Translations under genes and position numbers: made by a program
Shown: in pieces, positions 29,202 through 50,440 of the stretch
Position numbering within the stretch: position 1 is the first letter of the stretch
Layout of the letters: every line of letters starts with the position of its first letter
Notes under the pieces: generated by a model
Seen by the model: only the letters and a program-made list of their open reading frames with translations
Database searches by the model: none
What the model was told of the DNA's origin: nothing
DNA from: Saprospira sp. CCB-QB6
GTDB taxonomy: Bacteria; Bacteroidota; Bacteroidia; Chitinophagales; Saprospiraceae
Direction of reading: 5' to 3'
Assembly (NCBI RefSeq): GCF_028464065.1
Contig: NZ_CP116808.1
Coordinates: forward strand, 1,071,886-1,135,885
Length of the DNA: 64,000 nucleotides

Positions 29202-29239
29202 AGATGATTGATTTATTAGATACTTTTCTTTGCTAATGA

Positions 29240-36179: not shown

Positions 36180-37274
36180 TTAAAGGGTTCCTCTTAGCTC
36201 TTGCTCGCGCTCAATGGCTTCAAACAAGGCCTTGAAGTTTCCTTTGCCAAAAGATTGAGCCCCACAACGCTGAATGATTTCATAAAAAACGGTGGGACGA
36301 TCCTGTACCGGCTTAGTGAAAATCTGCAACAAATACCCATCTTCATCGCGGTCGATTAAAATATTGAGTTTCTTCAACTCTTCCAAATCTTCCTCAATTT
36401 CGCCTACGCGATCCAAAACCGTATCATAGTAGTTATCGGGCACATAAAGGAAGTCTACCCCATTGGCTCTCAACTGACTAACAGTCTCGATGATATTTTC
36501 TGTGGCTACGGCAATATGCTGCACGCCGCCCCCCTGATAAAAATCAATGTACTCCTCAATCTGCGACTTTTTGCGACCTTCTGCGGGCTCATTAATCGGA
36601 AATTTCACATAGCCATTGCCATTAGAAACTACCTTGCTCATCAAGGCGGTGTACTCTGTAGAAATATCATTGTCATCAAAGGTGATGAGCAGGTTGAATC
36701 CCATCACTTTCTGATAGTATTCTACCCATTTATTCATCTCGCCCCAACCTACATTGCCCACGCAATGGTCAACATATTTTAGGCCGACAGACTGCACTTT
36801 CATAGGACTTTCCTTAGCAATATAACCCGGCATAAATGCCCCCTTATAGTTTTTGCGCTCTACAAAGGTATGAATGGTTTCGCCATAGGTATAAATCCCC
36901 GCTAACTTCACTTCCCCATGCTCATCGGTCAAGGTTTTTGGCGCAAAAGCCGATTTGGCCCCTCTTTCTACCGCTACTTGATAAGCATTTTCTGCATCAT
37001 CTACCCAAAGCGCCAAGGTTTTTACCCCATCGCCATGCTTTTTCACATGCTCCGCTACAGGATGATCGGGCACTAGGGCCGAAGTCAAAAGCAAACGAAT
37101 TTTACCCTGCTCCAATACATAGGTGCAAAGCTCTTTATCGCCAGTTTCTAACCCTCTATAAGCCACCAACTTGTAGCCAAAGGCCGTCTGATAATAGTGG
37201 GCCGATTGCTTGGCATTTCCCACATAAAACTCCACATGATCGGTCCCCAATAGGGGCATTGCATCTTGGTTCAT
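36180..37274 (-). CDS. hppD: 4-hydroxyphenylpyruvate dioxygenase.
   Basis: 364 aa with a duplicated VOC fold (HVEFYVGNAKQSAHYY..., GVQHIAVAT...). Confidence 0.9.
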   Translation of the reverse strand: MNQDAMPLLGTDHVEFYVGNAKQSAHYYQTAFGYKLVAYRGLETGDKELCTYVLEQGKIRLLLTSALVPDHPVAEHVKKHGDGVKTLALWVDDAENAYQVAVERGAKSAFAPKTLTDEHGEVKLAGIYTYGETIHTFVERKNYKGAFMPGYIAKESPMKVQSVGLKYVDHCVGNVGWGEMNKWVEYYQKVMGFNLLITFDDNDISTEYTALMSKVVSNGNGYVKFPINEPAEGRKKSQIEEYIDFYQGGGVQHIAVATENIIETVSQLRANGVDFLYVPDNYYDTVLDRVGEIEEDLEELKKLNILIDRDEDGYLLQIFTKPVQDRPTVFYEIIQRCGAQSFGKGNFKALFEAIEREQELRGTL

Positions 37275-37351
37275 GTTACTGTTTTTTTAACGTATTTAGA
37301 TGATCTTGCTGTTCTGCGCCTAAACTTAAGCAATTTTTAGCTCTTTTTATT

Positions 37352-37565
37352 GCTTTTTGGGGCTGCCCCTTCCGCCGGGTTGAAACCCAGCGCAAAGCGG
37401 CATCGCTTTGCGAGCTTATACAAAATGAGGGTTAAAACCCTCATGAATTATCGGTCGGGTCGGGCTGTGTCGCAGCTCGCTGTTCGCTCGGCCCTTCGGC
37501 GCTTGCAGCGCCTCGGTCTGGCCTTCGGCCACTGCTGTCCATCCCTCAGCCAGATTTAATTGCGC
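37352..37565. repeat. Family A repeat with embedded family C hairpins (gggttgaaaccc, gagggttaaaaccctc).
   Basis: Inverted homologue of 43335-43420. Confidence 0.8.
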
Positions 37566-37737
37566 TGCTTTGGCCATCCTTTGCTATGATTTTTTGGCTA
37601 GGCCAGCTATTTTTTAAGGGCATAACCTTCGATATGGCCGAGAAAAATAGGGCCGACTAGCGGGAAATTGCTGCAAACTATAAAAGTGAGTGCGTTTAAA
37701 TCTGGCTATTGCCTGCGGCCCTCCGGGCCTGTAGGAC

Positions 37738-39393
37738 CTAAAAATCTTGCCTCCGCTCTAGCATATTCCAACGCAAGCCTAAGCGGCCCCAAACTGCCTG
37801 CGGGCTTTCTGTTAGGCCAGTTATCTTTTCTTGGCGGAAAGATAGCCCCAGATCTACATATAAATTATGATAGAGCTGATAGCTGCCCAATAAATCCAAA
37901 TACAATAAATGAGTGGCCAGCCCCTGCCCTATTCGGTTGCCATATTCCTGCTCTCTCGTAATATAAGAGAGGTGGATGTTGCTGCCCCAGTTACTCCCGC
38001 TGCTATCCTGTCCATAAAAGGCATAAGTGCATTGGGCCCTAAGCTGTAGCTTGGGCATCGGCTGATAGCGAATAATGGCCAAAAACTCTCTAAAGTTGGC
38101 CCCTAAGGGATGGGCCAAGGGCTGATTATAATGGGTATAACTAGCTGAACTATCTCTAAAGGTATAGGTATAGGGACGGACCGTATTGAACTCCAATTGC
38201 AGATCTAAATGATTGATATTGGCCACATTTCGGTATTTGAGGCCCAATTGTAGACCCTGCTTGTTGGCCCACCAGCCCCCATTGGCCGCAGAAGGCGAAC
38301 GGAACACCTCCGAAAAGGCAAACTCATCAATCACAACTTGCCCATAAAAGGCAAAACGCCGCAGAAAATCCCAACGGAAGTTGAGCCCCAGCATGGCATT
38401 ATCTGGGCTGCCCAAACCCTGCTCTACCGCCCGATAGAAAATAATTGGATTAAGATATTGCAACTCAAAACCTTGCTCTCGACCAAAAACGATGGCCTCA
38501 AATAAGCCAATTTGTAGGGTTTTACTCAGCTTGAGGTCCAGATAATGCGCCGCCAAATACTTTTTGGGATAGAGCCCATTGGCCACTGGTGCATGATCCT
38601 GCGTCAATTCCGCAAAGATATTGCGATAGTGGAAGCGCCAAATCCGAGTATCTAGTTGTAAGTAAAAGTAGTTGTTCGAGAAATCAGACAATAATAAGGA
38701 GCGGTGCCCATCGCCAATGAAATGGCGCCCATGGCCCAAACGGGCAGAGATATAAGGCATAAGCTGAAAGCCAATATGTCCCTGGGCCAATAGATAGTCT
38801 ACTCCATCTTCTGGCGCATCCGTCAACTGGCTATCATATACCTTATAAAAGCCCGCCCCGGGCACTGCCCCAAATTCGCTAATCCGGTTTTGGATATGAG
38901 CGGGATAAGCCGCCTGGTTTTCGGTTAGGGTCGTCGAGAAGAACAGCCGCTTGGCAATATCTCCCTCCAAATGCAGGCCTCTGCGGTTGAGGAAGAGCAG
39001 GTTTTGGGTTCCATCTTCTAGGCGCTCGCCTCCAGCTTGCAAATGCAATAAGGGATTGACCGAAAAATAGAAGTCGCCCGCTTGCAAGGCATATAGATTG
39101 GCCTTCTGCTGATAGAAATGCGACCAAAACCCCTGGGGCGCAGGGGCCAAGCTATCCCAAAGGGCATTATCAGCCAGAAGATAGCTAGAATCTGCACTTT
39201 GGGCGACCAACTTACGCAGATCGCTGCGCAAAAAGGGCCGCAGACTCGTATGTGCGCCCTCTACTGCTGGTTGAAGCGTCTGCTCTCGGTCCAAATAATC
39301 ATCTGAAGGGCCTTGCAATGGGCTATATTGGCTAGTCTGCGCCCAAAGATTAGCCGAAAGCAAAAGGGGAAAGAGATAAATCAGCTGTTTCAT
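37738..39393 (-). CDS. Hypothetical outer-membrane/secreted protein, probably a beta-barrel.
   Basis: Signal peptide (LLSANLWAQ). 551 aa rich in aromatic/Gly alternation. Confidence 0.45.
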   Translation of the reverse strand: MKQLIYLFPLLLSANLWAQTSQYSPLQGPSDDYLDREQTLQPAVEGAHTSLRPFLRSDLRKLVAQSADSSYLLADNALWDSLAPAPQGFWSHFYQQKANLYALQAGDFYFSVNPLLHLQAGGERLEDGTQNLLFLNRRGLHLEGDIAKRLFFSTTLTENQAAYPAHIQNRISEFGAVPGAGFYKVYDSQLTDAPEDGVDYLLAQGHIGFQLMPYISARLGHGRHFIGDGHRSLLLSDFSNNYFYLQLDTRIWRFHYRNIFAELTQDHAPVANGLYPKKYLAAHYLDLKLSKTLQIGLFEAIVFGREQGFELQYLNPIIFYRAVEQGLGSPDNAMLGLNFRWDFLRRFAFYGQVVIDEFAFSEVFRSPSAANGGWWANKQGLQLGLKYRNVANINHLDLQLEFNTVRPYTYTFRDSSASYTHYNQPLAHPLGANFREFLAIIRYQPMPKLQLRAQCTYAFYGQDSSGSNWGSNIHLSYITREQEYGNRIGQGLATHLLYLDLLGSYQLYHNLYVDLGLSFRQEKITGLTESPQAVWGRLGLRWNMLERRQDF

Positions 39394-39402
39394 GAAAACG
39401 AA

Positions 39403-40023
39403 TTAGAGCGTAAAGATGGCCCGCAGGCTAAACATATAGGGATTGAAATAAGTATCCTTGCGGATGTTCATCGGAGCCCGCTGCCAACGAGCATTGATGC
39501 CCCAGTTTTTGGTGATATAAAAGGTCAGATCGGCCATTAGCATGACATAATCCTTGCGGAACTTATCAATTACGGCAGGATCATCTTGCCCATTGATTTC
39601 TACCGTGGCATTGAGGATGCGATTATAGGAAAGTCCCGCCCCAAAGTGCATGCGGTGGTAGCTGTCCTTCCCATCTGTAGAGACCTCCCAATCTTTGAGA
39701 AAGATGAGGACTGGCACCTCTATATTATTAAGATGTAGGTAGAAGTTGCGGGGCGCCCCCTGAAGAGAAGGCGACTGGCTGCCTTGCTGAGAAAAAAGAA
39801 TCTCTACGCCTAGGTCCCAAATAGGCGCCAAACGGGCCGTTCCCCTAGCCCCAATGTTTAGGCCGGGCTTGGTATAGCCTGCAGCCTCATCCCCATCTAT
39901 TTGGGCCATATTGATCCCCGCTATAATACTAGCCGAAAAGCGATTCTGATAATCTGAAGATTGCGCCTGAAGCTGTAGCGCTCCAATCCATAAGGCAAGA
40001 AAGCATAAGATATTAAGTCGCAT
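39403..40023 (-). CDS. Outer-membrane beta-barrel protein (PorT/OmpA-like barrel family).
   Basis: Signal peptide. 206 aa. C-terminal ...LRAIFTL aromatic terminus typical of OMPs. 9-nt gap to the upstream gene. Confidence 0.45.
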   Translation of the reverse strand: MRLNILCFLALWIGALQLQAQSSDYQNRFSASIIAGINMAQIDGDEAAGYTKPGLNIGARGTARLAPIWDLGVEILFSQQGSQSPSLQGAPRNFYLHLNNIEVPVLIFLKDWEVSTDGKDSYHRMHFGAGLSYNRILNATVEINGQDDPAVIDKFRKDYVMLMADLTFYITKNWGINARWQRAPMNIRKDTYFNPYMFSLRAIFTL

Positions 40024-40084
40024 AATACATTTTATTTAATGTGAAGGGCTCAAAATACTGCGCTTTTAGGGGATTGGAAAGGCG

Positions 40085-40915
40085 GGGGCTGTTTTTTATT
40101 GATGGTTTTGCCTTCTCTGCGCCTAGGGACAAGCCCCTAGGCTAGCTTTTCAGACAGCCCTCTAAAGAGGGCCTTTGGATAAGGACCTTCTCTGCAATAA
40201 CTACTTAGTACGGTAATGTACATCAACCTTTGAGGCCCTTTAAGGCGGACTCCATTTGATTAGCCTAGGGGCTTGTCCCTAGGCCATTATTGGCCTTTTA
40301 TAATAACTGTAGGTTAAAACCTACAGCCAGATGGTATTGCTGCGCAATGATGTATGAATGAGGGTTAAAACCCTCATAAAATTAAACAGCCCAAATTTTA
40401 TTCAGATACACAAAATCCTGACAGTCTCTTACCCGACTTTACAAATGCTATTTCACAAATCCCGAATAGCTTTCCCTTTGAATTGTTTGGGGTTTGGCTC
40501 CGAAATCACGCTATTATATATACCTGTGGGTTGAAACCCACAGCAACAAAAGAGGCCATACTAAACGCAATAAAATGGGCTGAAGGTTAAAACCTTCAGC
40601 CCATAGCTAGAAAAGGATTGATTAACTAAGTGAGAAAGATAAAAGGCCAAAAGATTTCAATCCATGCGGGTTTCAACCCGCATTCCATAAAAAATATTGC
40701 GGAGCAATACCTTGCTTGCTGTAGGTTTCAACCTACAGTAAACGGCCTAGCGATGTGGAGGGGTGGCCGAAGGCCAGACCAAGGCGGCGCAGCCGCCGCA
40801 GGGCCGAGCGACCCGACCAACGGGAGCCGACGCAGCGAAGCAAGTAATAGCGAGCCCCGCAACGTAGCGCCGCAAGGCGAAGCCGCAGCGGAGGCCCCAA
40901 AATATCTCAATAAAC
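40085..40915. repeat. Repeat hotspot adjacent to tRNA-Pro containing nested family A, B and C elements.
   Basis: Family B MITE at 40118-40288 with 25-bp inverted ends (gcctagggacaagcccctaggc). Family C two-hairpin modules at 40310-40390, 40500-40620 and 40660-40740. Family A GC-rich copy at 40740-40910. Confidence 0.85.
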
Positions 40916-40920
40916 ACAAA

Positions 40921-40955
40921 AAAAAAGCTGAATAACTGTAAAGTTATTCAGCTTT
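40921..40955. terminator. Bidirectional terminator hairpin just 3' of tRNA-Pro.
   Basis: aaaaaa-gctgaataact-gtaa-agttattcagc-tttt. Confidence 0.6.
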
Positions 40956-41031
40956 TGGTCGGGATGACTGGACTTGAACCAGCGACCACTCGCCCCCCAG
41001 ACGAGTACTCTACCAACTGAGCTACATCCCG
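40956..41031 (-). tRNA. tRNA-Pro (anticodon GGG), CCA encoded.
   Basis: Reverse complement reads CGGGATG-TA-GCTC...-CTCGT-CUGGGGG-GCGAG...TTCAAGT...CATCCCG-A-CCA. Anticodon loop has U33-GGG-G37. Confidence 0.85.
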
Positions 41032-41061
41032 ATTCGCTAGTAGCGTTGTTGTTTGTGGTCA

Positions 41062-41092
41062 CAAATATAGGGCGATATTTTTAAGATCCAAA
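41062..41092 (-). promoter_or_regulatory. Bacteroidota-type sigma-A promoter for tRNA-Pro (-33 TTTG, 19-nt spacer, -7 TATATTTG).
   Basis: Reverse complement reads tttg-gatcttaaaaatatcgccc-tatatttg. Nearly identical architecture upstream of tRNA-Phe. Confidence 0.55.
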
Positions 41093-41111
41093 CTTCTAGC
41101 GATTATTTTTC

Positions 41112-42290
41112 CTAATTCCCTCCAAATACATCACGGAGACGGTCTAAAAAGCCCTTTCTACCGCCTTTTTCTTTAGCATTGGGGATGAAATTTTTGCTGT
41201 CGCGCATTTTTTCTAAGGCGCGGCGTTCTTCTGAAGAGATATTTTGAGGCACCCAAACTTTGACGTGAATGAGTTGGTCGCCTTGGCCATAGCCTCTTAG
41301 AGAAGGGAGGCCCTTACCTCTTAGGCGGAACACCTTGCCGCCTTCGGTTCCGGCGGGTAGGGTAACTTTCACCTTACCGGTTAGGGTGGGCACTTCGACA
41401 GCGGTACCTAGTACTAGGTCGGCAAAATTGACATCTAGTTCATAGTGAATATTGTTGCCATCGCGGGCAAAGAGCTCATGTTCCTTTTCTTGGATATTGA
41501 TGAGTAGATCGCCTGCGGGGCCACCGTTCATGCCAGAATTCCCTTTGCCGCTCATAGAAAGTTGCATTCCTTCTGATACGCCAGCGGGGATTTCGAGTTC
41601 TAGGGTTTCTTCGCCATAGGTACGGCCTTCGCCTTTACAGCTTGTACATTTGCTGGTAATGCTTTTTCCAGAGCCGTTACATTGGGGGCAAGCGACCGTG
41701 GTTTGCATTTGGCCCAAGAAGGTATTTTGCACCTTGCGGACATATCCGCTACCATTACAGCCGCTACAAGTCTTGATTGAGCTGCTATCTTTGGCCCCAG
41801 AGCCGCCACAGCTTTGGCAATTTACATATTTCTTGACCTTAATCTTCTTTTTGGCTCCCTTAGCAATTTCTTCTAGGGTCAGGCCAACGCGAATACGGAG
41901 ATTAGAGCCTTTTTGGCCACCGGCTGCTCTGCGGCCGCGGCCGCCTTGCTGTTGGCCAAAGAAGTCGAAACCTCCTCCGCCGCCACCACCAAAGATGTCG
42001 CTAAATTGAGAGAAAATATCCTCCATAGAGAAGCCCCCTGCACCACCTGGTCCAGCTCCTTGATTAACGCCAGCATGACCGTAGCGGTCGTAAGCTGCAC
42101 GTTTTTGGTCATCATTGAGCACCTCATAGGCTTCTGCTGCTTCCTTAAATTTTTCTTCTGCCTCGGGGTTATCGGGATTGCGGTCAGGGTGGTATTTCAT
42201 AGCCACCTTGCGGTAGGCTTTTTTGAGTTGCGCCTTATCCACATTCCGATCTACGCCCAACACTTCATAATAATCTCTTTTCTGCGCCAT
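41112..42290 (-). CDS. dnaJ: Molecular chaperone DnaJ.
   Basis: J domain (YYEVLGV...KYHPDRNP), G/F-rich region and four CxxCxGxG zinc-finger repeats. Confidence 0.95.
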
Positions 42291-42308
42291 GACTCTTTAT
42301 CTTCTTTT

Positions 42309-42863
42309 TTATTGGCCCACTACAACCTTGGCGTAGCGGATGATTTTTTCATTCAAAATGTATCCTTTTTCCACCGTATCAATCACTTTGCCCTTGAGCT
42401 CTTCTGTGGGAGCGGGCACTTTAGTGAGGGCTTCGTGGAAATCGGGATCAAAGGCTTGGCCAGTAGATTCCATTTCTTCCAATCCTTTTTGGGCCAAGGC
42501 TTTTTTCATTTTTTCATAGATGAGCATAATGCCATCGTCTAGGTCTTGGCCTGCTTTTACGGCCCGATCAAAATCGTCGAGTACAGGCAAGAGCGACTTG
42601 ATGGTATCGGCTGCGGCAGTTTGGATGAGCTGCAATTTTTCTCTGGCGTTGCGTTTTCTGAAGTTGTCGAATTCGGCATAAATACGCAGGTATTTATCCT
42701 TCATTTCGGCTAATTCTTGGGCCAGTTTTTCTTTTTCATCTTTGGGGGCTGCGGTTTCCTTTACAGTCTCCTCTTGAGTTTGTGCATCTGCTTGCAACTG
42801 TTCTTCTTGCTGCTGTTGCTCCTCCTGAGGATCTAGTTGTTCCTCCTGCTTCTTTTCTTCCAT
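42309..42863 (-). CDS. grpE: Nucleotide exchange factor GrpE.
   Basis: 184 aa with an acidic N-terminus and a GrpE core (YLRIYAEFDNFRKR...). Confidence 0.9.
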   Translation of the reverse strand: MEEKKQEEQLDPQEEQQQQEEQLQADAQTQEETVKETAAPKDEKEKLAQELAEMKDKYLRIYAEFDNFRKRNAREKLQLIQTAAADTIKSLLPVLDDFDRAVKAGQDLDDGIMLIYEKMKKALAQKGLEEMESTGQAFDPDFHEALTKVPAPTEELKGKVIDTVEKGYILNEKIIRYAKVVVGQ

Positions 42864-42950
42864 GATAGTATATAATATATAGTAAGACGGTTTTTAAACG
42901 ATTTCACTTTGGCCCTTTTCAAGTTTTTTGCCAGCCGCAAGATAAAGACA

Positions 42951-43000
42951 TCTTGTCAGTTTTTTCTTGCTTTTTGGCAGTTTGTCAGTTTAGTCTGACA
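42951..43000. promoter_or_regulatory. Candidate operator: CTTGTCAG twice plus an inverted CTGACA upstream of grpE-dnaJ.
   Basis: Motif seen in the sequence. The same 8-mer plus an inverted half-site lies upstream of dnaK. Confidence 0.3.
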
Positions 43001-43061
43001 GGCTAAGGCGGGGCGATTATTTTTTTATTGATTTTTTGGGGCGTTACTCCTTACAGTCGTC

Positions 43062-43440
43062 GAACTGCGGCTTGTAGCCTTGTTGTCGTTCCGCAGCTCG
43101 CTATTACTTGCTTCGCTGCGTCGGCTCCCGTTGGTCGGGTCGCTCGGCCCTTCGCCAGCTAAGCTGGCTCGGTCTGGCCTGCGGGCCACTGCTGCACATC
43201 GCTAGGCCATGAAGGAGCGAAGCGACGCGGCTGAGGGATGGAGAGGGTGGCCCACAGGGCCAGACCGAGCAAAAATGCGCAGCATTTTTTGCGAAGGGCC
43301 GAGCGAGCAGCGAGCCCGGAACAGCCCGACCCGCCCGATAATTCATGAGGGTTTTAACCCTCATTTTGTAGAGCTTCGCAAAGCGATACCGCTTTGCGCT
43401 GGCGTTCAAGCTGGCGGAAGGGGCAGCCCCAAATCATTAT
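43062..43440. repeat. Family A repeats with a family C hairpin module, ending GGGGCAGCCCCAAA.
   Basis: Homologous to 37352-37565 in inverted orientation. Confidence 0.8.
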
Positions 43441-43487
43441 TAAAAAGGCAAAAAAAAACCTCCAAGCCAAAAGCTTGAAGGTTGAAG

Positions 43488-43560
43488 TGGTTTCGGGCGG
43501 ACTCGAACCGCCGACACACGGATTTTCAGTCCGATGCTCTACCAGCTGAGCTACGAAACC
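43488..43560 (-). tRNA. tRNA-Phe (anticodon GAA).
   Basis: Reverse complement reads GGTTTCG-TA-GCTCAGCTGGTAGAGC-A-TCGGA-CUGAAAA-TCCGT-GTGTC-GGCGGTTCGAGTCCGCC-CGAAACC-A. Confidence 0.85.
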
Positions 43561-43581
43561 CGCTGTTTTGTTTTGCGTGGC

Positions 43582-43613
43582 ACAAATATAAGGCAGTTTT
43601 TTAAAATTCCAAA
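43582..43613 (-). promoter_or_regulatory. Bacteroidota-type sigma-A promoter for tRNA-Phe (TTTG, 19 nt, TATATTTG).
   Basis: Reverse complement reads tttg-gaattttaaaaaactgcct-tatatttg. Confidence 0.55.
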
Positions 43614-43764
43614 GCTTTGCTAAAAAAAAGTGATTTTTTATTCTGTGTGGTTCTTCGGACTTAAAGTTTTTTAAAAATTTAAGAATAGCGGGCCCTTTTA
43701 TTAAATTTGCCCGATTGCTTTTTTGCCCAAAAATGTTTGGTCTCATCCTTAGAATTTAAAATCT

Positions 43765-44982
43765 ATGTATTTAAAAAGATGGAGTGTATTGGCCCTGCTC
43801 CTTTGTTTTGGCCTTTTGACGAATAGCTGCGATAATGAAGTAGATGTGGTTGGGGACTGGAAAGAGGTGCCTGTTGTTTATGGGGTGATTAACCCGCTAC
43901 CTCTTTTTGAGCCGATGGAGCCGCATTATATTCGCATTGAGAAGGCCTTTTTGGATCCTCGCACCGATGCTTTTCAGATTGCGCAACGGCCAGACTCCCT
44001 ATATTATGGTCCTTTTGATTTGGAGGTCATTCTTTTTCAGCAAAGCTTACAGGGTTCGCAGGTTATTAGTACTGCTTTAGATACTTTAGAGCGTGTTAGT
44101 GCGGTAGATGAAGGATTTGGAGACCGGGAAGAGGGCATTTTTGCGGCTAGTCCCAACTATATATATAAGAGTGATGCGGTTGTACCTGTGGGGGCATACT
44201 TGATGTTAAAAGTAAAAAATTTGAGTTCGGGAAAAGAGTATGACATCTATACAAAAGCTATTCAAGCTGGTGATCTCGACCTTACGGGTCAGACTTTTCG
44301 CAACTTTAGAGTTAACACGCCATCTACCTCTTTAGGGGTAAAGTGGGTCAATTATGATCAAGGTTCTCAGGATTGGATTTTCAGAGACATCAATTTTAAT
44401 TGGGCAACACCAACTGATGCTGCTGTTTACGATTTATCTTTAGATATCCACTATTATGAATTTGAGGTAGATGAAAGTCAAACTGGAGAGCCTGAGATAG
44501 CGGGTACTCGTGTACTCAAAACATTAACTTGGACCCCCTTCCGCTCTATTATGGCTTCTGGTTCTTCTGAGCCCAAGGGGCTTTGCAGTGCTTGTCCAGC
44601 CACCTATGAGCGTTTTGTAGAAGGTGATGGAAGTGTAGCGCAAGAGATTAATGGCGAAAACTTCTTCCGTTATTTGGCCAGTAATCTATCTAGCACAACA
44701 GACAATAACATTCGTCGTTGTTTTAGCCACTTTGATGTTCAGGTAGATGCTGCGGGGGTTGATTTGGCTAACTATCTAAAAGCCAATGCGGCGAATCAGA
44801 CTTTAGTGGGTGGACTATTTCCCGCAGAGCCCTATACTAATGTACCTGATGGTTATGGTATTTTTACTACAAAGATGTTTACCAATAAAAAAGGCTATGA
44901 TTTAGATGATGAGGTTTTGGAGTATCTTAAATTTGGGGAGATTACTCGTGATCTAGGATTTAGAGATTACAGTTGTAACTAA
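43765..44982 (+). CDS. Hypothetical lipoprotein.
   Basis: Signal peptide with an LTNSC lipobox-like cysteine. 405 aa. Confidence 0.5.
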   Translation: MYLKRWSVLALLLCFGLLTNSCDNEVDVVGDWKEVPVVYGVINPLPLFEPMEPHYIRIEKAFLDPRTDAFQIAQRPDSLYYGPFDLEVILFQQSLQGSQVISTALDTLERVSAVDEGFGDREEGIFAASPNYIYKSDAVVPVGAYLMLKVKNLSSGKEYDIYTKAIQAGDLDLTGQTFRNFRVNTPSTSLGVKWVNYDQGSQDWIFRDINFNWATPTDAAVYDLSLDIHYYEFEVDESQTGEPEIAGTRVLKTLTWTPFRSIMASGSSEPKGLCSACPATYERFVEGDGSVAQEINGENFFRYLASNLSSTTDNNIRRCFSHFDVQVDAAGVDLANYLKANAANQTLVGGLFPAEPYTNVPDGYGIFTTKMFTNKKGYDLDDEVLEYLKFGEITRDLGFRDYSCN

Positions 44983-44990
44983 AAATATAA

Positions 44991-45017
44991 AGGCCCTCTT
45001 GTTAGGGCCTTTTTTTA
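44991..45017 (+). terminator. Rho-independent terminator.
   Basis: aggccct-cttgtt-agggcct hairpin followed by a T7 run. Confidence 0.65.
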
Positions 45018-45064
45018 TGTCCTCAAACAACTCGATTCACTAAGCCTTCAGCTAGCTTCTTTAA

Positions 45065-45110
45065 CTGACAATAAAAACAGAGAAAACTGTAAAAATGGCA
45101 GCTTGTCAGG
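45065..45110. promoter_or_regulatory. Candidate operator upstream of dnaK: CTGACA, 31 nt, then CTTGTCAG.
   Basis: Same motif as the grpE upstream region. Confidence 0.3.
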
Positions 45111-45262
45111 CTGAAAATGACATCTAAACAGCCGATTTGGCAAAAAAAAGGGCAAAAAAGAAAAAAAATTGTGTTGGTACAAGCCTTGATCTTAGGGCAG
45201 TGTCGCTCAATGAGGCGAACAATAATTGACTATCAAACTAACAAATTCAATATCTACAAGTT

Positions 45263-47170
45263 ATGGGTAAGATTATAGGAATCGACTTAGGAACTACCAA
45301 CTCCTGCGTATCTGTAATGGAAGGAAACGAACCTGTAGTGATTACCAACGAAGAGGGTAAGCGCACTACGCCTTCTGTTATTGGTTTTTTGGATAATGGC
45401 GAACGCAAAATCGGAGATCCCGCTAAGCGTCAAGCTATTACCAACCCACACAAAACAATCATGTCTATCAAACGCTTTATGGGCTTGCGTTATAGCGAGG
45501 CTGGCGATGATGTGAACCAGGTCCCCTACGAAATTTTGAAAGGGGCCAATGATACTATTCGCGTAAAAATTGACGATCGTGAATATAGCCCACAAGAAAT
45601 TTCGGCCATGACGCTGCAAAAAATGAAGCGCATTGCAGAAGAGTATTTGGGCCAAGAAGTGACTGAAGCTGTAGTTACTGTACCTGCTTACTTTAACGAC
45701 TCTCAGCGTCAAGCCACTAAAGAAGCTGGCGAAATTGCCGGCCTTAAAGTTCGTCGTATCATCAACGAACCTACTGCTGCAGCACTTGCTTACGGTATGG
45801 ACAAAGCTGATGAAGATGTAACTATCGCTGTTTATGACCTTGGTGGAGGAACTTTTGACGTTTCTATCCTTGAATTGGGCGGTGGTGTTTTCGAAGTAAA
45901 ATCAACTAATGGTGATACTCACCTTGGTGGTGACGACTTTGACCGCGTGATTATGGACTGGCTCATTAGCGAGTTTAAAGATCAAGAAGGTATTGACCTT
46001 AGCAAAAATGCAGAGGCCATCCAACGTCTAAAAGAAGCTTCAGAAAAAGCTAAAATTGAGCTTTCTGGTGGTTCTTCTACAGACATTAACCTTCCTTATA
46101 TCTCTTTCAATGAAAGTGGCGCTAAGCACTTGGTTCGCCAATTGAGCCGCTCTAAATTTGAGCAACTCATTAGCAACTTGGTACAGCGTACCCTTACTCC
46201 TTGCCAAAAAGCATTGGATGATGCGGGTCTTTCTATCAGCGATATTGATGAGATTATCCTAGTGGGTGGTTCTACTCGTATTCCTGCTATTCAGGAAGCT
46301 GTAGAAAAATTCTTTAACAAGAAACCCAATAAGAGTGTAAACCCTGATGAAGTAGTTGCCGTAGGTGCTGCTATCCAAGGTGGTGTATTGACTGGTGAAG
46401 TGAAAGATGTTCTTCTCCTAGACGTTACTCCCCTTTCTTTGGGTATCGAAACTTATGGCGGCGTATTCACTCGCCTAGTAGAAGCCAACACGACTATTCC
46501 TAAACGTGCCTCTCAGGTATTCTCTACGGCTCAAGACAATCAGCCTTCTGTAGAGATCCACGTTTTGCAAGGAGAGCGCCCTATGGCTAATCAAAACCGC
46601 ACAATCGGTCGCTTCCAACTAGAGGGTATCCCCGCTATGCGCAAAGGCGAACCTCAAATTGAAGTAGTTTTTGACATTGACTCTAACGGTATCCTTAGCG
46701 TTTCTGCTAAAGAAAAAACTACCGGAAAAGAACAGAAGATCCGTATCGAGGCTTCTACTGGTCTTTCTCAAGAAGAAATTGATAAAATGAAGCAAGAAGC
46801 TGAGGCAAATGCCGAAGCTGACCGCCAAGCTCGCGAAAAAGTAGATAAGCTTAATGAGGCTGACTCTATCATCTACCAAACTGAACGTCAGATGACGGAG
46901 TATGGCGATAAATTGCCCGAAAACCTCAAAGGCGATATCGAAAAAGCAGTAACCGAACTAAAAGCTGCTCACCAAGCACAAGATCTAGATGCTATCAACA
47001 AAGGTATCGAGGCTGTAAATAACGCTTGGGCTGCTGCTAGCCAGCAAATGGGTGGACAACCTGGCGCTGGAGGCCCCGAAGCTGGTCCCCAAGGTCCCGC
47101 TAACGAAGGCCAAACCGGTGGCGATGATGTAACCGACGTAGAATTTGAAGAAGTAGATAACAACAAATAA
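45263..47170 (+). CDS. dnaK: Molecular chaperone DnaK (Hsp70).
   Basis: [19 protein letters not shown] and the full-length 635-aa Hsp70 architecture. Confidence 0.97.
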
Positions 47171-47197
47171 TCTTCTTCTCAAAAGACGCTAATACTG

Positions 47198-47229
47198 GCG
47201 AGTCAACAATTGTTGACTCGCCTTTTTTT
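47198..47229 (+). terminator. Rho-independent terminator after dnaK.
   Basis: gcgagtcaacaa-ttgttgactcgc hairpin followed by a T7 run. Confidence 0.7.
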
Positions 47230-47341
47230 ATCTCTAACAAGAACGGCCCAAGCAAGCCTAAAAAATTAGCGCAATGCTGTTTTTAAATCAGTTCTTCCCC
47301 GCATTTCTATTCTTTATTATCTTTGAGCCAAAATCTAACTT

Positions 47342-47992
47342 ATGGCGACATCCCCCCGGCTCCGCTACTTTCTGCTTATACCTATGCTGCTTTATTTTCT
47401 TTTCCTTTTTTGGTTCCATTGGATTCAACCCAAAACAGCTAGCAAAGCTGAACAAATTGCAGCCAATAATGAGGCTATTGCCGCCTACGTAGATCGCTTC
47501 CACCCCCTCGCCATTGCCGAAATGCAAAGAATGGGCGTGCCCGCTAGCATTACCCTCGCCCAAGGAATCCTAGAATCTCGTTACGGTAAAAGTGAACTGG
47601 CCCAACAAGCCAATAACCACTTTGGAATGAAATGCGGCGGCAACTGGGAGGGCGATAGCTACTCCAAATTTACCGGAGAATGGAATAATGAAGCCCAATC
47701 TTACCGACAATTGGCCTGCTTCCGCGTCTTCGAATCCGCCGAAGCCTCTTTCCGTGCCCATTCCGATTTCCTCCGCTACCGCAAATACTACCAAAAACTC
47801 TTTCTCCTCCCCTCTGGCGATTATAAAGCCTGGGCCAAAGGCCTACAAGCCGCTGGCTATGCCACCGACCCCAAATATCCCGATAAACTCATTTCTCTGA
47901 TCGAACGATTTAAACTCGACCAATACGATCAACTCCTGCTCCGCCCAGAATCCCCCTGGGTCGTAGCTCCAGATACCCTTTCTTTCGACTAA
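47342..47992 (+). CDS. Glucosaminidase-domain protein (GH73 / mannosyl-glycoprotein endo-beta-N-acetylglucosaminidase-like).
   Basis: ITLAQGILESRYGKSELAQQANNHFGMKC motif. N-terminal TM/signal. Confidence 0.75.
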   Translation: MATSPRLRYFLLIPMLLYFLFLFWFHWIQPKTASKAEQIAANNEAIAAYVDRFHPLAIAEMQRMGVPASITLAQGILESRYGKSELAQQANNHFGMKCGGNWEGDSYSKFTGEWNNEAQSYRQLACFRVFESAEASFRAHSDFLRYRKYYQKLFLLPSGDYKAWAKGLQAAGYATDPKYPDKLISLIERFKLDQYDQLLLRPESPWVVAPDTLSFD

Positions 47993-48004
47993 TCTCTCCT
48001 CTCT

Positions 48005-49699
48005 ATGCGCCTGCTCTATATCTTTGCCCTTAGCCTACTCCTCGCTTGCCAAAATGAAGCCCCCAAAGCCGAACTCCTCATTTTTAATGGCCCCATCTAT
48101 ACCCTAGATAATAGCCAAGCTCAGGTCGAAGCCCTAGCCGTAGCCAATGGAAAAATTATCGCCCTCGGAAATTGGACAGATATCCAAAAATACCAAAGCC
48201 CAAATACCGAACTGCTTGACCTCAATGGAAAAACCCTGATTCCCGCCTTTATTGAAAGCCATGCCCATATTCTGGGCCTCGGACAATTTAAACGAGAACT
48301 GGACCTTAGCCAAGTCAAAAGCTATGAGGAACTCATCAAAATAGTCCAAGAACAAGCCCAACATACTCCCAAAGGAGAATGGATCATCGGCCGTGCCTGG
48401 CACCAAAGTAAATGGGACTCCCTCCCCTTTTCTATCAAAGGCTACCAAACGCATGATGCCCTCAGCCAAGCTGTCCCCGATCATCCCGTTTTGCTGATGC
48501 ACGCTAGCGCCCACGCCCTAATGGCTAACGAAAAAGCTATGCAGTTAGCTGGCCTCAGCCCCGAAACCCAAATGAATGAAGAAGGCGAAATTATCCGCTT
48601 TCCCAATGGCCGCCCCACAGGCATTTTTACCGAAAATGCCATGTCTATTATTAAAGAGGCCCTTCCCCCAGCCGACGAAAATAGCCGCTACCAAGACCTA
48701 CAAGCCGGTATCCAAGAAGCCCTCAGCTATGGCATCGGCAGCCTACAAGATGCAGGCTCCGATTCTGCCGCTATCGCACTTTACCGAAAAGCCCTGGCCC
48801 AAAATGAACTCCCCCTCCGCCTTTGGGTCATGCTGGCCTATAATAATTATGCCGCCGATGTCCAAGGCCAAGAAGACCCTTTCCTGGAAAAATGGCTGCA
48901 AAAAGGCCCCGAAAAAGGCGACTTTCTCAGCATCGGAGGCATTAAACTCTATGCCGACGGCGCCCTAGGCTCTAGAGGCGCCTGGATGCTCGAAGAGTAT
49001 AGCGACCGCGCCGGCCATTTTGGCCACCCTACCCTCCCCCTAAAAACAATTGAAGAAATTGCCGAAAAAGCCCTGCTGGCCGACTTCCAACTCTGTACCC
49101 ACGCTATCGGCGATCGCGCCAACCAAGAACTACTCAATATCTATGAACGAGTCCTAAAAACACATCCCCAAGCCGCCAAAGACCACCGCTTCCGAATTGA
49201 ACACGCCCAACATATTGCCCCCCAAGATATTCCCCGATTTGCCAAACTAGACGTTATTGCCTCCATCCAAGGCATCCACTTTTCTTCCGACCGCCCCTGG
49301 GCCCAAAGCCGCCTCGGCCGCCTGCGCATCGCTATGGGCGCCTACCGCTGGAAACAATTGCTGGCCTCTGGCGCTAAACTAATTAACGGCACCGATGCCC
49401 CCGTGGAATCTATCAATCCCATCGCCTGCTTTTATAGCCTCGTCAGCCGCCAAGCCAATGATGGCCAAATCTATGAAGCCGACCAAAAACTTAGCCGCCT
49501 ACAAGCCCTAAAAGCCTATACCCTAGATGCCGCCTATGGCGCCTTTCAAGAAAAAGAAAAAGGCAGCCTAGAACTCGGAAAGTTTGCCGATTTTGCCATC
49601 CTCTCCCAAGATATTATGCAGGTCCCCCTCCAAGATATTCCACAAACTAAGGTCCTCCAAACTATTGTAAATGGCAAAACAGTCTATTTGAGGAAGTAG
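48005..49699 (+). CDS. Amidohydrolase family protein (Amidohydro_3-like), lipoprotein.
   Basis: FIESHAHILGLG metal-binding motif. Lipoprotein-type signal (LLLACQNE). 564 aa. Confidence 0.75.
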   Translation: MRLLYIFALSLLLACQNEAPKAELLIFNGPIYTLDNSQAQVEALAVANGKIIALGNWTDIQKYQSPNTELLDLNGKTLIPAFIESHAHILGLGQFKRELDLSQVKSYEELIKIVQEQAQHTPKGEWIIGRAWHQSKWDSLPFSIKGYQTHDALSQAVPDHPVLLMHASAHALMANEKAMQLAGLSPETQMNEEGEIIRFPNGRPTGIFTENAMSIIKEALPPADENSRYQDLQAGIQEALSYGIGSLQDAGSDSAAIALYRKALAQNELPLRLWVMLAYNNYAADVQGQEDPFLEKWLQKGPEKGDFLSIGGIKLYADGALGSRGAWMLEEYSDRAGHFGHPTLPLKTIEEIAEKALLADFQLCTHAIGDRANQELLNIYERVLKTHPQAAKDHRFRIEHAQHIAPQDIPRFAKLDVIASIQGIHFSSDRPWAQSRLGRLRIAMGAYRWKQLLASGAKLINGTDAPVESINPIACFYSLVSRQANDGQIYEADQKLSRLQALKAYTLDAAYGAFQEKEKGSLELGKFADFAILSQDIMQVPLQDIPQTKVLQTIVNGKTVYLRK

Positions 49700-49700
49700 T

Positions 49701-49832
49701 ATTTGGGGCCTCCGCTGCGGCTTCGCCTTGCGGCGCTACGTTCCGCAGCTCGCTATTCGCTCGGCCCTGCGCCGCCAAAGGCAGCTGGGTCTGGCCTGAC
49801 GGCCACTGCTGCACATCGCTAGGCCGCTCATC
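49701..49832. repeat. Family A GC-rich repeat.
   Basis: ggggcctccgctgcggcttcgccttgcggcgctacgttccgcagctcgctattcgctcggccc... Confidence 0.8.
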
Positions 49833-49959: not shown

Positions 49960-50060
49960 TTTGAACCTGTGGGTTGAAACCCACAGCAACAAAAGAGGCC
50001 ATACTAAACGCAATAAAAATGAGCCGATGGTTGAAACCATCGGCCCATATCATTTATAGC
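49960..50060. repeat. Family C two-hairpin module (gtgggttgaaacccac ... gccgatggttgaaaccatcggc).
   Basis: Homologous to 40510-40615. The second stem differs by compensatory changes. Confidence 0.8.
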
Positions 50061-50334: not shown

Positions 50335-50440
50335 ATAAAATTTTGGCCTTTAAATTTTATGAGGGTTTTAACCCTCATTCATACATCATTGCGCAGCAAT
50401 ACCACATATGGCTGTAGGTTTTAACCTACAGTTATTATAA
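50335..50440. repeat. Family C two-hairpin module (gagggttttaaccctc ... gtaggttttaacctac), inverted copy of 40310-40390.
   Basis: Reverse complement matches 40310-40390 almost base for base. Confidence 0.85.

What the first reader, a model, noticed from the sequence alone, without database searches (positions are those of the whole stretch)
40300..40740. REP-like two-hairpin modules (family C) built on a GGTT-NN-AACC core whose stems covary between copies.
Short hairpins recur at 37415-37450, 40310-40390, 40500-40620, 40660-40740, 43335-43400, 49960-50060 and 50335-50440. The hairpins are gagggttaaaaccctc, gtgggttgaaacccac, gaaggttaaaaccttc, gcgggtttcaacccgc, gtaggtttcaacctac and gatggttgaaaccatc. 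The central GGTT..AACC core is constant while the flanking stem bases differ between copies and always remain perfectly complementary. They come in pairs separated by a conserved linker (gcgcagcaatacc / gcggagcaatacc). They occur in both orientations: 50335-50440 is the reverse complement of 40310-40390. The copy at 49960-50060 differs from the copy at 40510-40615 mainly by compensatory substitutions in the second stem (ggctgaagg/ccttcagcc versus gccgatgg/ccatcggc). This is the signature of REP/BIME-type elements recognised as DNA hairpins by a tyrosine transposase. It is also the signature of structured RNA.
Basis: seen in the sequence. Interest (0 to 1): 0.75.

Follow-up and report, generated by a model that had tools for sequence, protein, structure and literature searches.

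The report
REP-like hairpin doublets in Saprospira
The recurring GGTT..AACC hairpins are real, high-copy, strictly intergenic repeats of Saprospira genomes, and in relatives they flank a single-copy tyrosine (HUH/Y1) transposase gene, so they are most likely small mobile DNA hairpin elements of the REP kind, in a phylum where this kind had not been described in the papers I could search.

Summary
GGTTNNAACC occurs 13 times in the window against 0.9 expected, always intergenic. Twelve of the 13 sit in perfect 20-30 nt palindromes. They form seven two-hairpin modules.

The same family is abundant in Saprospira grandis and in a marine metagenome: 263 cores in 606 kb, and none of 176 tested lies in a long ORF. 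Stems covary strongly: 88.9% of cells pair against 73.5% in shuffles (0/500). The loop is always R-A on one strand. 95 of 103 adjacent hairpin pairs have the same polarity.

One module (M4, about 37372-37448) is a precise 76-nt presence/absence difference against a 93-94% identical ortholog.

In S. grandis WH, a 132-aa Y1 transposase (Pfam Y1_Tnp; found at one place) is flanked on both sides by these modules in inverted orientation. A 58%-identical homolog in a metagenome contig shows the same arrangement.

The REP/tyrosine-transposase reading is therefore supported. A structured-RNA reading is not: there is no orientation bias relative to genes and no Rfam match.

It differs from classic REP/BIME/REPIN systems in two ways. 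The doublets are head-to-tail, and the transposase scores as IS200-type rather than RAYT. I rate it a new variant of a known kind. The transposase was not found in the window itself, and no biochemistry exists.

The parts
40307..40386 (+). Module M1 (type I). Hairpin 1 is CTGTAGGTTAAAACCTACAG at 40307-40326. The middle mini-hairpin ATTGC-TGC-GCAAT is at 40336-40348. Hairpin 2 is ATGAGGGTTAAAACCCTCAT at 40358-40377. The 3' tail is AAAATTAAA.
   Evidence: DNA fold -16.8 kcal/mol, z -6.8
40524..40604 (+). Module M3 (type II). Hairpin 1 is CTGTGGGTTGAAACCCACAG at 40524-40543. The linker is CAACAAAAGAGGCCATACTAAACGCAATAAA. Hairpin 2 is the long ATGGGCTGAAGGTTAAAACCTTCAGCCCAT at 40575-40604 (14 bp stem).
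   Evidence: z -7.0
40655..40738 (-). Module M2 (type I, reverse orientation). Hairpin 2 is ATGCGGGTT..AACCCGCAT at 40664-40683. The mini-hairpin ATTGC-GGA-GCAAT is at 40696-40708. Hairpin 1 is CTGTAGGTT..AACCTACAG at 40719-40738. It abuts the 3' end of a GC-rich repeat (40738-40901).
37372..37448 (+). Module M4, inserted in the 5' end of a GC-rich repeat. Hairpin 1 is CGCCGGGTTGAAACCCAGCG at 37373-37392 (one mismatch). The middle hairpin CGCAAAGCG-GCAT-CGCTTTGCG is at 37391-37412. Hairpin 2 is ATGAGGGTTAAAACCCTCAT at 37425-37444. The tail is GAATTA. The module is absent from the orthologous site in L102.
   Evidence: 76-nt indel against a 93-94% identical ortholog; 32-nt plain form against 108-nt filled form
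43339..43419 (-). Module M4', an inverted copy of M4 in another GC-rich repeat. Hairpin 2 is at 43345-43364 and the middle hairpin at 43377-43398. Hairpin 1 is degenerate (CCAGCTTGAACGCCAG).
   Evidence: (I1: 37334-37468 against 43321-43455, 86%)
49967..50048 (+). Module M3' (type II). Hairpin 1 is CTGTGGGTTGAAACCCACAG at 49967-49986. Hairpin 2 is ATGAGCCGATGGTTGAAACCATCGGCCCAT at 50019-50048 (one A.C mismatch). The repeat continues to about 50130, including the sister hairpin CCATGGGCTTCAGCCCATGG at 50101-50120.
   Evidence: D18; ortholog L001 has CTGTAGG..CCTACAG at the same site
50350..50431 (-). Module M1' (type I), an inverted copy of M1. Hairpin 2 is at 50359-50378, the mini-hairpin at 50388-50400 and hairpin 1 at 50412-50431. 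It is part of the inverted repeat 50315-50466.
   Evidence: I3/I4

Best explanation
These are REP-like DNA hairpin elements of the Saprospira lineage.

Anatomy:
- The unit is a 20-30 nt palindrome of the form [variable paired stem]-GGTT-(A/G)A-AACC-[variable paired stem].
- Two such hairpins with the same polarity form a 75-85 nt module.
- The first hairpin usually carries GTAG (ctGTAGgtt...).
- One of three linker types separates the two hairpins. One linker type holds a third small hairpin.

Proposed mechanism (inferred):
- The modules are non-autonomous elements handled as folded single-stranded DNA by a small Y1/HUH transposase of the IS200/IS605 family.
- In S. grandis that gene was found at one place, flanked by two modules in inverted orientation. 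This is the 'REPtron' layout.
- The enzyme would read the invariant core, the loop and the G-C pair at stem position 3. It would require the rest of the stem only to pair, which explains the covariation.
- Excision and insertion would be precise and leave no target duplication.

Shown here: the repeat family, its covariation, its strand-specific loop, its extragenic location, one precise indel at an orthologous site, and the physical association with an intact, conserved Y1 transposase gene.

Inferred only: that this enzyme binds, cuts and moves the modules, and that the window's own genome encodes it.
For: Enrichment: 13 against 0.9 expected in the window. 46 separate 8-kb blocks spread over the 4.4-Mb S. 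grandis DSM 2844 scaffold. 263 cores in 606 kb of Saprospira-like DNA, 262 of them with loop GA/AA or its complement TC/TT.

Location: 0 of 176 cores lie inside ORFs of 150 aa or more, although 67% of the sequence is in such ORFs.

Covariation on 79 distinct hairpins:
- 88.9% of cells pair, against 73.5% in shuffles (0/500) and 31-48% in slid controls.
- 122 cells have changes on both sides, against 46 in shuffles (0/500).
- Stem positions 1, 2, 4 and 5 each use three or more Watson-Crick pair types, while position 3 is nearly invariant G-C.
- The orthologous copy in L001 (94% identical flanks) has A-T where the window has G-C at 49967-49986.
- The linker mini-hairpin also shows a compensatory variant: ATTGC/GCAAT against ATCGC/GCGAT.

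Polarity: 95 of 103 adjacent hairpin pairs are direct.

Mobility:
- M4 is a 76-nt indel against ortholog L102.
- The host GC-rich repeat has a 32-nt 5' end in 27 copies and exactly 108 nt in 5 copies from three genomes.
- No target duplication is visible.

Transposase:
- L108:4209-4616 encodes a 135-aa protein. Pfam Y1_Tnp E=1.2e-25. NCBIfam transpos_IS200 69.3 bits against a cut-off of 55.
- Its HUH motif and catalytic Tyr align to ISHp608 TnpA.
- It has modules on both sides.
- Its 58%-identical homolog P0002, named 'IS200/IS605 family transposase [Saprospira grandis]', sits at one place in chromosome CP110854.1. A module ends 42 nt before the ATG, and an inverted module starts 18 nt after the stop. 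Four further contigs show the same layout.
- The gene is under purifying selection. It has 0-2 differences among five samples, all at third codon positions, while the neighbourhood is 94-97% identical. L108 against L124 differs at 6/5/18 sites by codon position.

Literature: group-3 REPs are short perfect palindromes in which loop positions are essential and GTAG tolerates changes. Recognition is strand-specific on folded ssDNA (PMC8266576). GTAG REP families show sub-families with complementary stem changes and TY loops (PMC3733652).
Against: - No Y1 transposase gene is present in the window or in the 46 DSM 2844 loci. The rest of the window's genome could not be searched.
- The transposase scores below the RAYT model cut-off (37.4 against 80 bits). 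It might be an ordinary IS200 whose neighbours happen to be repeats.
- Single-copy status rests on an exact-sequence look-up.
- The two tnpA loci have opposite arrangements: hairpin 2 is proximal in L119 and hairpin 1 is proximal in L108.
- The five M4-bearing copies share identical junctions. They could descend from one insertion that then spread with the GC-rich repeat.
- Covariation is mostly between a limited number of sub-families, roughly 10 stem classes. Hairpin-templated repair could also produce it without selection.
- There is no clear replication-strand bias.
- No biochemical or transcript data exist.
Confidence: 0.7

Rival explanations
1. The modules are miniature derivatives (PATE/MITE-like) of an active, ordinary IS200/IS605 insertion sequence, not the cargo of a domesticated single-copy RAYT-like enzyme. 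Hairpin 1 would be the left-end hairpin and hairpin 2 the right-end hairpin, both on the same strand.
For: - The transposase passes the IS200 equivalog model and fails the RAYT model. It is 132-135 aa, like IS200 TnpA.
- The two hairpins of a module have the same polarity, as IS200/IS605 ends do.
- The indel is precise and shows no duplication.
Against: - The exact protein was found at only one place in the complete S. grandis WH chromosome.
- The gene is flanked by whole modules in inverted orientation, not by one left hairpin and one right hairpin.
- The gene is more conserved than its surroundings across samples. That is behaviour typical of domesticated RAYTs (PMC5581495).
Confidence: 0.15
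2. The hairpins act at the RNA level, as cis-acting stabilisers, terminators or small RNAs. On this view the covariation reflects selection on RNA structure.
For: - The predicted folds are strong (z -5 to -8), the stems covary and the loop is conserved.
- Many REPs are thought to act as RNA (PMC3733652).
- Mismatches are mostly A.C/A.A on the RA-loop strand, which is G.T/T.T on the other strand.
Against: - Between co-directional genes there is no orientation preference: 19 co-oriented against 29 anti-oriented.
- Copies occur in both orientations within one intergenic region, and both strands fold equally.
- No Rfam family matches.
- Only 1 of the 6 hairpins in 40000-41100 has a T-tract.
- Copies differ in presence between close relatives.
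- This reading does not explain the flanking of a transposase gene.
Confidence: 0.08
3. The modules have no mobility of their own. They are sub-modules of the larger GC-rich mosaic repeats and spread only by recombination or gene conversion among those repeats. On this view the link to tnpA is incidental.
For: - Modules are nearly always embedded among other recurring modules.
- The five M4 copies share identical junctions within the GC-rich repeat.
- Synteny breaks and an apparent 10-kb inversion coincide with repeat clusters.
Against: - The same hairpin 1 is combined with three unrelated linkers and many different flanks.
- The ortholog of the GC-rich repeat at 37.4 kb is otherwise nearly identical and lacks exactly the module.
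- Two divergent tnpA genes at different loci are both bracketed by modules. That is unlikely by chance if only a few percent of intergenic regions carry a module.
Confidence: 0.07

Closest known systems
GTAG-tagged REPs with perfect short palindromes (group-3 REP/TnpA_REP systems of Pseudomonas, Stenotrophomonas 'SMAG' and Marinomonas; PMC3733652, PMC8266576)
   Same: - Short (about 20 nt) perfect palindromes, extragenic and present in hundreds of copies.
- GTAG/CTAC at the foot of the stem in hairpin 1, with GTGG and GCAG variants.
- A 2-nt loop that reads TY on the complementary strand.
- Sub-families with complementary stem changes.
- Dimers 20-100 bp apart.
- A Y1/HUH gene found at a single place, flanked by inverted copies (REPtron layout).
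   Different: - Dimers here are head-to-tail: 95 of 103 pairs. HT dimers are rare or absent in described families.
- Hairpin 2 lacks GTAG.
- The linkers are conserved, and one holds a third hairpin.
- The enzyme does not reach the RAYT model cut-off.
- The host is a member of Bacteroidota, for which the 2013 survey reported only CGTC repeats.
REPINs with RAYTs (Bertels and Rainey; PMC3116915, PMC5581495)
   Same: The replicating unit is a doublet of REP hairpins. The copy number is high. The transposase is found at one place and is conserved. PMC5581495 already notes a RAYT-like 'IS200 group 3' without duplicates and with abundant flanking 16-mers.
   Different: REPINs are inverted doublets that fold into one long hairpin. 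These modules are direct doublets that fold into two or three separate hairpins.
IS200/IS605 insertion sequences and their palindrome-associated miniature derivatives (PATEs); model IS608
   Same: - The Y1 transposase has HUH and Tyr motifs that align to ISHp608 TnpA and passes the NCBIfam IS200 model.
- Both hairpins of a module lie on the same strand.
- The indel is precise and shows no target duplication.
   Different: - The gene was found at one place only.
- It is flanked by inverted whole modules rather than by one left and one right end.
- No tnpB is present.
- No conserved target tetranucleotide could be defined.
E. coli BIMEs
   Same: Mosaic intergenic clusters of REP hairpins with conserved linker motifs, located between genes.
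   Different: BIMEs alternate REP and inverted REP. E. coli REPs are longer and have an obligatory bulge.

Membership tests
REP (repetitive extragenic palindromes) | Short (20-50 nt) palindrome able to form a stem-loop | tested here: met
   Perfect 9-14 bp stems with a 2-nt centre. DNA folds give z -5 to -8 on both strands.
REP (repetitive extragenic palindromes) | High copy number dispersed over the genome | tested here: met
   46 8-kb blocks spread over the 4.4-Mb S. grandis DSM 2844 scaffold. 164 cores in those 368 kb. 263 cores in 606 kb overall. Whole-genome totals could not be counted.
REP (repetitive extragenic palindromes) | Extragenic location | tested here: met
   0 of 176 cores lie in ORFs of 150 aa or more, although 67% of the sequence is in such ORFs.
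REP (repetitive extragenic palindromes) | Conserved GTAG (or CGTC) tetranucleotide at one end | tested here: inconclusive
   Hairpin 1 is mostly ctGTAGgtt, with GTGG and GCAG variants. Hairpin 2 has GAGG, GGAG or CGAT instead.
REP (repetitive extragenic palindromes) | Sub-families with complementary (compensatory) stem changes | tested here: met
   6 of 10 pairs have changes on both sides. 122 such cells against 46 in shuffles (0/500).
BIME / REPIN organisation | Two REPs in inverted orientation (REP and iREP) | tested here: not met
   95 of 103 adjacent hairpin pairs have the same loop polarity and 8 are inverted.
REPtron (tnpA_REP flanked by its REPs) | Y1/HUH transposase gene bracketed by inverted copies of the genome's abundant repeat | tested here: met
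   L119 (S. grandis WH, CP110854.1): module(+) 9882-9958, tnpA 10001-10399, module(-) 10418-10491. L108: module(-), tnpA, module(+). Not testable for the window's own genome.
RAYT / TnpA_REP protein family | Sequence membership (NCBIfam REP_Tyr_transpos NF047646 at or above its cut-off) | tested here: not met
   37.4 bits against a cut-off of 80, tested on the L108 protein. The IS200 equivalog NF033573 scores 69.3 against a cut-off of 55.
RAYT / TnpA_REP protein family | Single copy per genome, conserved like a host gene | tested here: inconclusive
   The exact protein is found at one place in the complete chromosome. Only third-position differences occur among five samples. Diverged paralogs could not be excluded.
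IS200/IS605 Y1 transposase | Y1_Tnp fold with HUH motif and catalytic tyrosine | tested here: met
   PF01797 E=1.2e-25. HIH and the Y in KYIRYQ align to the HUH motif and to the tyrosine of QYIENQ in ISHp608 TnpA 2a6m; that this tyrosine is the catalytic Y127 is from my own knowledge of IS608.
IS200/IS605 insertion sequence | Multiple copies of the whole tnpA-containing unit | tested here: not met
   One place in CP110854.1. None in 432 kb of DSM 2844 loci plus the window.
MITE of a DDE transposon | Terminal inverted repeats and target-site duplication | tested here: not met
   The module ends are not inverted repeats of each other beyond the shared core. No duplication is seen at the M4 indel.
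Known structured RNA families (Rfam 15) | Match to a covariance model | tested here: not met
   Only tRNAs reach the gathering score. Permissive hits over 37200-50700 are chance-level.
Intrinsic terminator | GC-rich hairpin followed by a T-tract, oriented with the upstream gene | tested here: not met
   Only 1 of 6 family hairpins in 40000-41100 is terminator-like. There is no orientation bias.

The most novel reading that the evidence does not exclude
Saprospira carries an independently domesticated IS200-clade Y1 transposase. It would sit outside the recognised RAYT family and maintain a new kind of REP system. In this system the mobile unit is a head-to-tail doublet or triplet of hairpins, recognised through an invariant GG(T/C)T-RA-A(A/G)CC core plus loop with free stems. 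These units would build the genome's mosaic intergenic repeat landscape and drive rearrangements such as the 10-kb inversion between M1 and M1'.
Probability: 0.4. Interest if true: 0.55.

Novelty: new variant of a known kind. Interest (0 to 1): 0.5.

Why it matters
REP/RAYT systems are best known from Proteobacteria. Their mode of spread is still unresolved. A Bacteroidota example would add a natural comparison for two questions: how Y1 transposases recognise folded DNA, and how often such enzymes have been domesticated.

This example has three useful properties:
- a very small IS200-like enzyme;
- perfectly palindromic hairpins whose orientation is marked only by a 2-nt loop;
- head-to-tail doublets.

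The clear split into invariant positions (core, loop, G-C at stem position 3) and freely covarying positions gives direct, testable predictions for binding and cleavage assays.

The repeats also mark sites of strain-to-strain rearrangement in Saprospira. That matters for assembly and comparative genomics of this group.

Tried and rejected
- A regex for the RAYT C-terminal motif found RAYT-like ORFs only in unrelated Dojkabacteria (L037) and Cytophagales (L079) contigs. Their repeats resemble the search pattern only superficially: in L037 the GGTTTGAACC lies inside a longer stem.
- phmmer with that RAYT, and later with the Saprospira TnpAs, found nothing in the window or the DSM 2844 loci.
- Orientation relative to flanking genes showed no bias.
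- Orientation relative to genome position or local GC skew showed at most a weak trend. That trend is confounded by two hairpins per module and by the draft scaffold.
- I looked for hairpin 1 and hairpin 2 far apart with an ORF between them, as in an autonomous element. None was found in the DSM 2844 loci.
- I tested whether the recurrent 'type I(+) ... type III(-)' composites are internal-deletion derivatives of the tnpA unit. Only the conserved module tails are shared, so this is not supported.
- Rfam searches at gathering and permissive thresholds gave no relevant match.
- The terminator scan was negative for 5 of 6 hairpins.
- Literature searches found no description of Saprospira repeats.
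- The exact nucleotide boundaries and target sequence of M4 could not be fixed to better than about 1-2 nt.
Full report

Yes. GGTTNNAACC occurs 13 times in the 64-kb window against 0.90 expected from shuffles (largest shuffle value 4). All 13 lie between 37378 and 50426.

Twelve of the 13 are the centre of a perfect palindrome with a 9-14 bp stem and a 2-nt centre. The copy at 37373-37392 has one mismatch.

All lie in four intergenic regions among housekeeping genes:
- 4-hydroxyphenylpyruvate dioxygenase-like;
- two outer-membrane proteins;
- tRNA-Pro;
- dnaJ, grpE;
- tRNA-Phe;
- an unannotated 405-aa ORF (43765-44982, no Pfam match);
- dnaK;
- a glucosaminidase;
- two amidohydrolases.

**2. 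Anatomy**

The hairpins come as two-hairpin modules of 75-85 nt. The window holds seven:

| Module | Coordinates | Strand |
|---|---|---|
| M4 | about 37372-37448 | + |
| M1 | 40307-40386 | + |
| M3 | 40524-40604 | + |
| M2 | 40655-40738 | - |
| M4' | 43339-43419 | - |
| M3' | 49967-50048 | + |
| M1' | 50350-50431 | - |

Hairpin 1 is CTGT(A/G)GGTT-RA-AACC(T/C)ACAG, so it carries GTAG/CTAC in the stem. Hairpin 2 starts ATG and ends CAT, with a variable insert: ATGAGGGTT, ATGCGGGTT, or the long ATG(A/G)GC(C/T)GA(T/A)GGTT.

When hairpin 1 is written first, the loop of both hairpins reads AA or GA.

The linkers fall into three types:
- Type I holds a third small hairpin, ATTGC-NNN-GCAAT. A compensatory variant ATCGC/GCGAT exists.
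- Type II is CAACAAAAGAGGCCATACTAAACGCAATAAAA.
- Type III is CCAATTAACGAATGCATTTTTGTGTTCA. It is absent from the window.

Each type has a short conserved 3' tail.

Folded as single-stranded DNA, each module gives two or three separate hairpins. The z-scores are -5 to -8 and equally good on either strand.

**3. Copies elsewhere**

I scanned one genome per species (GTDB) with a pattern that fixed only one arm of hairpin 1 and the two cores. It returned 97 stretches. Forty-six were 8-kb blocks spread over the 4.4-Mb scaffold of Saprospira grandis DSM 2844.

A stricter pattern on metagenomes returned 20 contigs, nearly all from one sample (Ga0193958). That sample contains a 93-94% identical relative of the window.

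The window is therefore from a Saprospira. Its dnaK region is also 94% identical to an ENA metagenome contig.

Counts in this material:
- In the DSM 2844 blocks plus the window there are 177 cores. All but one have loop AA/GA or the complement.
- In all 606 kb of Saprospira-like DNA there are 263 cores.
- None of 176 lies inside an ORF of 150 aa or more, although such ORFs cover 67% of the sequence.
- Adjacent hairpins have the same polarity in 95 of 103 pairs.

**4. Covariation**

I aligned 79 distinct 22-nt hairpins and counted pairs for the 10-bp helix:

| Measure | Observed | Control |
|---|---|---|
| Cells forming a standard pair | 88.9% | 73.5% in shuffles (0/500 reach it); 31-48% when the partner is slid |
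| Cells changed on both sides | 122 | 46 in shuffles (0/500) |
| Covariation score | 0.35 | 0.10 in shuffles |

Stem positions 1, 2, 4 and 5 (counted outward from the core) each use three or more Watson-Crick pair types. Position 3 is almost always G-C, and the GGTT/AACC core never varies within this set.

Part of one arm was fixed by my search patterns. Hairpin 2 and the many unselected copies were not.

Most of the variation is between about ten stem classes, so the number of independent compensatory events is modest. Two cases are nevertheless clean:
- M3 against M3' in the window, where the upstream 54 nt are identical and the second stem has two double changes.
- The orthologous copy in L001, which has A-T where the window has G-C at 49967-49986.

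Intermediates also exist: A.A in GCCGAAGG..CCATCGGC and C.A in ccgaa/ttcag.

A sister class, GGCT-(GA/AA/TC/TT)-AGCC, has the same loop repertoire. There are 135 copies, and four lie in the window at 13285, 29361, 29414 and 50101. So even the 'constant' core can change T-A to C-G.

**5. Evidence for mobility**

L102 is the ortholog of window 36516-40099 at 93-94% identity. It carries the same GC-rich repeat at 37.4 kb, including that repeat's copy-specific inner hairpin. It lacks exactly the 76 nt of module M4.

Across all sequences, the 5' end of this GC-rich repeat is 32 nt in 27 copies. It is exactly 108 nt in the five copies that carry an M4-type module. Those five come from three genomes, and two are in the window. 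One copy (L077) keeps only the module's tail, GAATTATCGG.

No target duplication is visible.

Intergenic repeat content differs strongly between relatives, and synteny breaks coincide with modules.

**6. The transposase**

A motif screen for HUH...Y ORFs found a candidate in metagenome contig L108, from the same sample as L102. It is a 135-aa ORF at 4209-4616.

Its sequence features:
- Pfam Y1_Tnp, E=1.2e-25.
- It passes NCBIfam's IS200/IS605 transposase model, 69.3 bits against a cut-off of 55.
- It fails the RAYT model, 37.4 bits against a cut-off of 80.
- Its HUH motif and tyrosine align to ISHp608 TnpA.

It is bracketed by family modules. A module(-) ends 54 nt before the ATG. A collapsed module and then a full module(+) follow the stop.

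A database search with the L108 protein gave two hits. One is a 91% relative. The other is a 58%-identical protein named 'IS200/IS605 family transposase [Saprospira grandis]'.

The latter is encoded at one place in the complete S. grandis WH chromosome, CP110854.1. There a module(+) ends 42 nt before the ATG, and an inverted type III module starts 18 nt after the stop. Four further contigs from other samples show the same layout.

The gene is more conserved than its surroundings. It has 0-2 differences among five samples, all at third codon positions, within a region that is 94-97% identical. For L108 against L124, the differences fall 6/5/18 by codon position.

No such gene lies in the window or in the 46 DSM 2844 blocks.

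**7. Interpretation**

The layout matches a REPtron: a Y1 gene found at one place, between inverted copies of the genome's abundant extragenic palindrome.

The hairpins match what is known of group-3 REPs. Those are short and perfect. Their loop positions are essential, GTAG tolerates changes, and recognition is strand-specific on folded single-stranded DNA (PMC8266576).

They also match the GTAG REP superfamily, which has 2-nt TY loops and sub-families with complementary stem changes (PMC3733652).

The most likely mechanism is that the Y1 enzyme binds the folded hairpin. It would read the core, the loop and the G-C at position 3, and need the other stem positions only to pair. It would then cut and rejoin single-stranded DNA, so that modules excise and insert precisely. 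These steps are inferred, not shown.

**8. Differences from known systems**

- The doublets are head-to-tail, not inverted as in BIMEs and REPINs. HT dimers are rare in described families (PMC3733652).
- Hairpin 2 lacks GTAG.
- By sequence the enzyme is IS200-like rather than RAYT. A RAYT-like, non-duplicating 'IS200 group 3' has been noted before (PMC5581495).
- The host is a member of Bacteroidota. The 2013 survey listed only CGTC repeats for that phylum.
- No paper in the searchable library describes Saprospira repeats.

**9. Rivals**

- **RNA function.** This is not supported. There is no orientation bias, no Rfam match and rarely a T-tract.
- **Ordinary active IS200 with miniature derivatives.** This remains possible. 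Against it are the single location, the conservation of the gene and the inverted flanking modules.
- **Spread only as part of the larger GC-rich mosaic.** This explains the shared junctions of the M4 copies. It does not explain the orthologous indel, or the bracketing of two divergent transposase genes.

**10. Verdict**

It is a new variant of a known kind, a REP-like system. Interest is moderate.

The main gaps are threefold. The transposase has not been shown in the window's own genome. No whole-genome census was possible. No biochemical evidence exists.

Noticed in passing
window 5297-5420, 13134-13238, 29237-29366, 37345-37557, 40738-40901, 43085-43330, 49702-49825, 51913-52037, 56110-56182, 59137-59229, 63626-63731 and others: A GC-rich repeat of about 170-190 nt (TTGGGGCTGCCCC ... 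GGTCGGGTCGGGCT ... GCTCGCTNTTCGCTCGGCCC ... GGTCTGGCC ... CATCGCTAGGCC) occurs in both orientations throughout the window. It has copy-specific internal GC hairpins. Family-C modules often abut its 3' end or sit in its 5' end.
   Followed up: partly
window 40272-40421 and 50315-50466; L102:3349-4336: Relative L102 joins the ortholog of window 40099 to the reverse complement of window about 50270-49939. The window therefore carries a roughly 10-kb inversion relative to L102. Its endpoints fall at the inverted repeat pair that contains M1 and M1'. L102 has no M1 copy at its junction.
   Followed up: partly
window 13285-13304, 29361-29380, 29414-29433, 50101-50120: A sister hairpin class has core GGCT-NN-AGCC instead of GGTT-NN-AACC, with the same loops (GA/AA/TC/TT). 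There are 135 copies in 606 kb of Saprospira-like DNA. It often forms part of the extended type II repeat.
   Followed up: partly
window 25600-26152: A tandem array of about 10 copies of a 41-nt unit. Each unit contains the hairpin CTCTGGCC-CCA-GGCCAGAG.
   Followed up: no
window 40114-40208 and 1627-1722; hairpins at 40121-40142 and 40263-40284: Another repeat family is built on GCCTAGGGACAAGCCCCTAGGC. An inverted pair lies just upstream of M1, and a 94-100% identical copy lies at 1.6 kb.
   Followed up: no
L077 (reverse strand, position 3446 of the reverse complement): One GC-rich repeat copy in S. grandis DSM 2844 reads CCCC-GAATTATCGG-GCGGGTCGGG. It keeps only the 3' tail of an M4-type module. 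This could be an excision or deletion footprint.
   Followed up: partly
L119:7805-10772 against L075 and L027: The tnpA region of S. grandis WH lies between segments that are about 300 kb apart in the DSM 2844 scaffold (97% and 95% identical). The synteny ends fall at modules.
   Followed up: partly
L008, L013, L016, L025, L036, L069, L088 (Bacteroides sp. MAGs); L005, L012, L020, L028, L045, L048, L065, L080 (Tannerellaceae MAG): Other Bacteroidota carry multi-copy inverted doublets, CCTCTGTGGGTTTYAACCCCAGG ... CCTGGGGTTRAAACCCACAGAGG. These are REPIN-like and share the GGGTT-RA-AACCC hairpin core. No Y1 gene was found in those loci.
   Followed up: partly
L037:4626-5400; L079: A RAYT-like ORF in a Dojkabacteria MAG (weak match to E. 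coli TnpA_REP 4er8) is flanked by tandem CTGTTGGTTTGAACC repeats and by GTTTGAAC...GTTCAAAC hairpins. A partial RAYT-like ORF lies in a Cytophagales MAG that also has 21-nt CCGTGGGTTCAAACCCAT tandem repeats.
   Followed up: partly
L060, L061, L067, L019 (Hormoscilla cyanobacterial MAGs): Direct doublets of GTGGGTTAAAACCCAC hairpins about 45 nt apart. This is an apparently separate family with the same hairpin core.
   Followed up: no
L102:3380-3690; window 50240-50272: A 41-nt unit (agttatgttccagacatagctagttatg...) is present about once in the window. In the relative L102 it is expanded to an array of about 8 copies.
   Followed up: no
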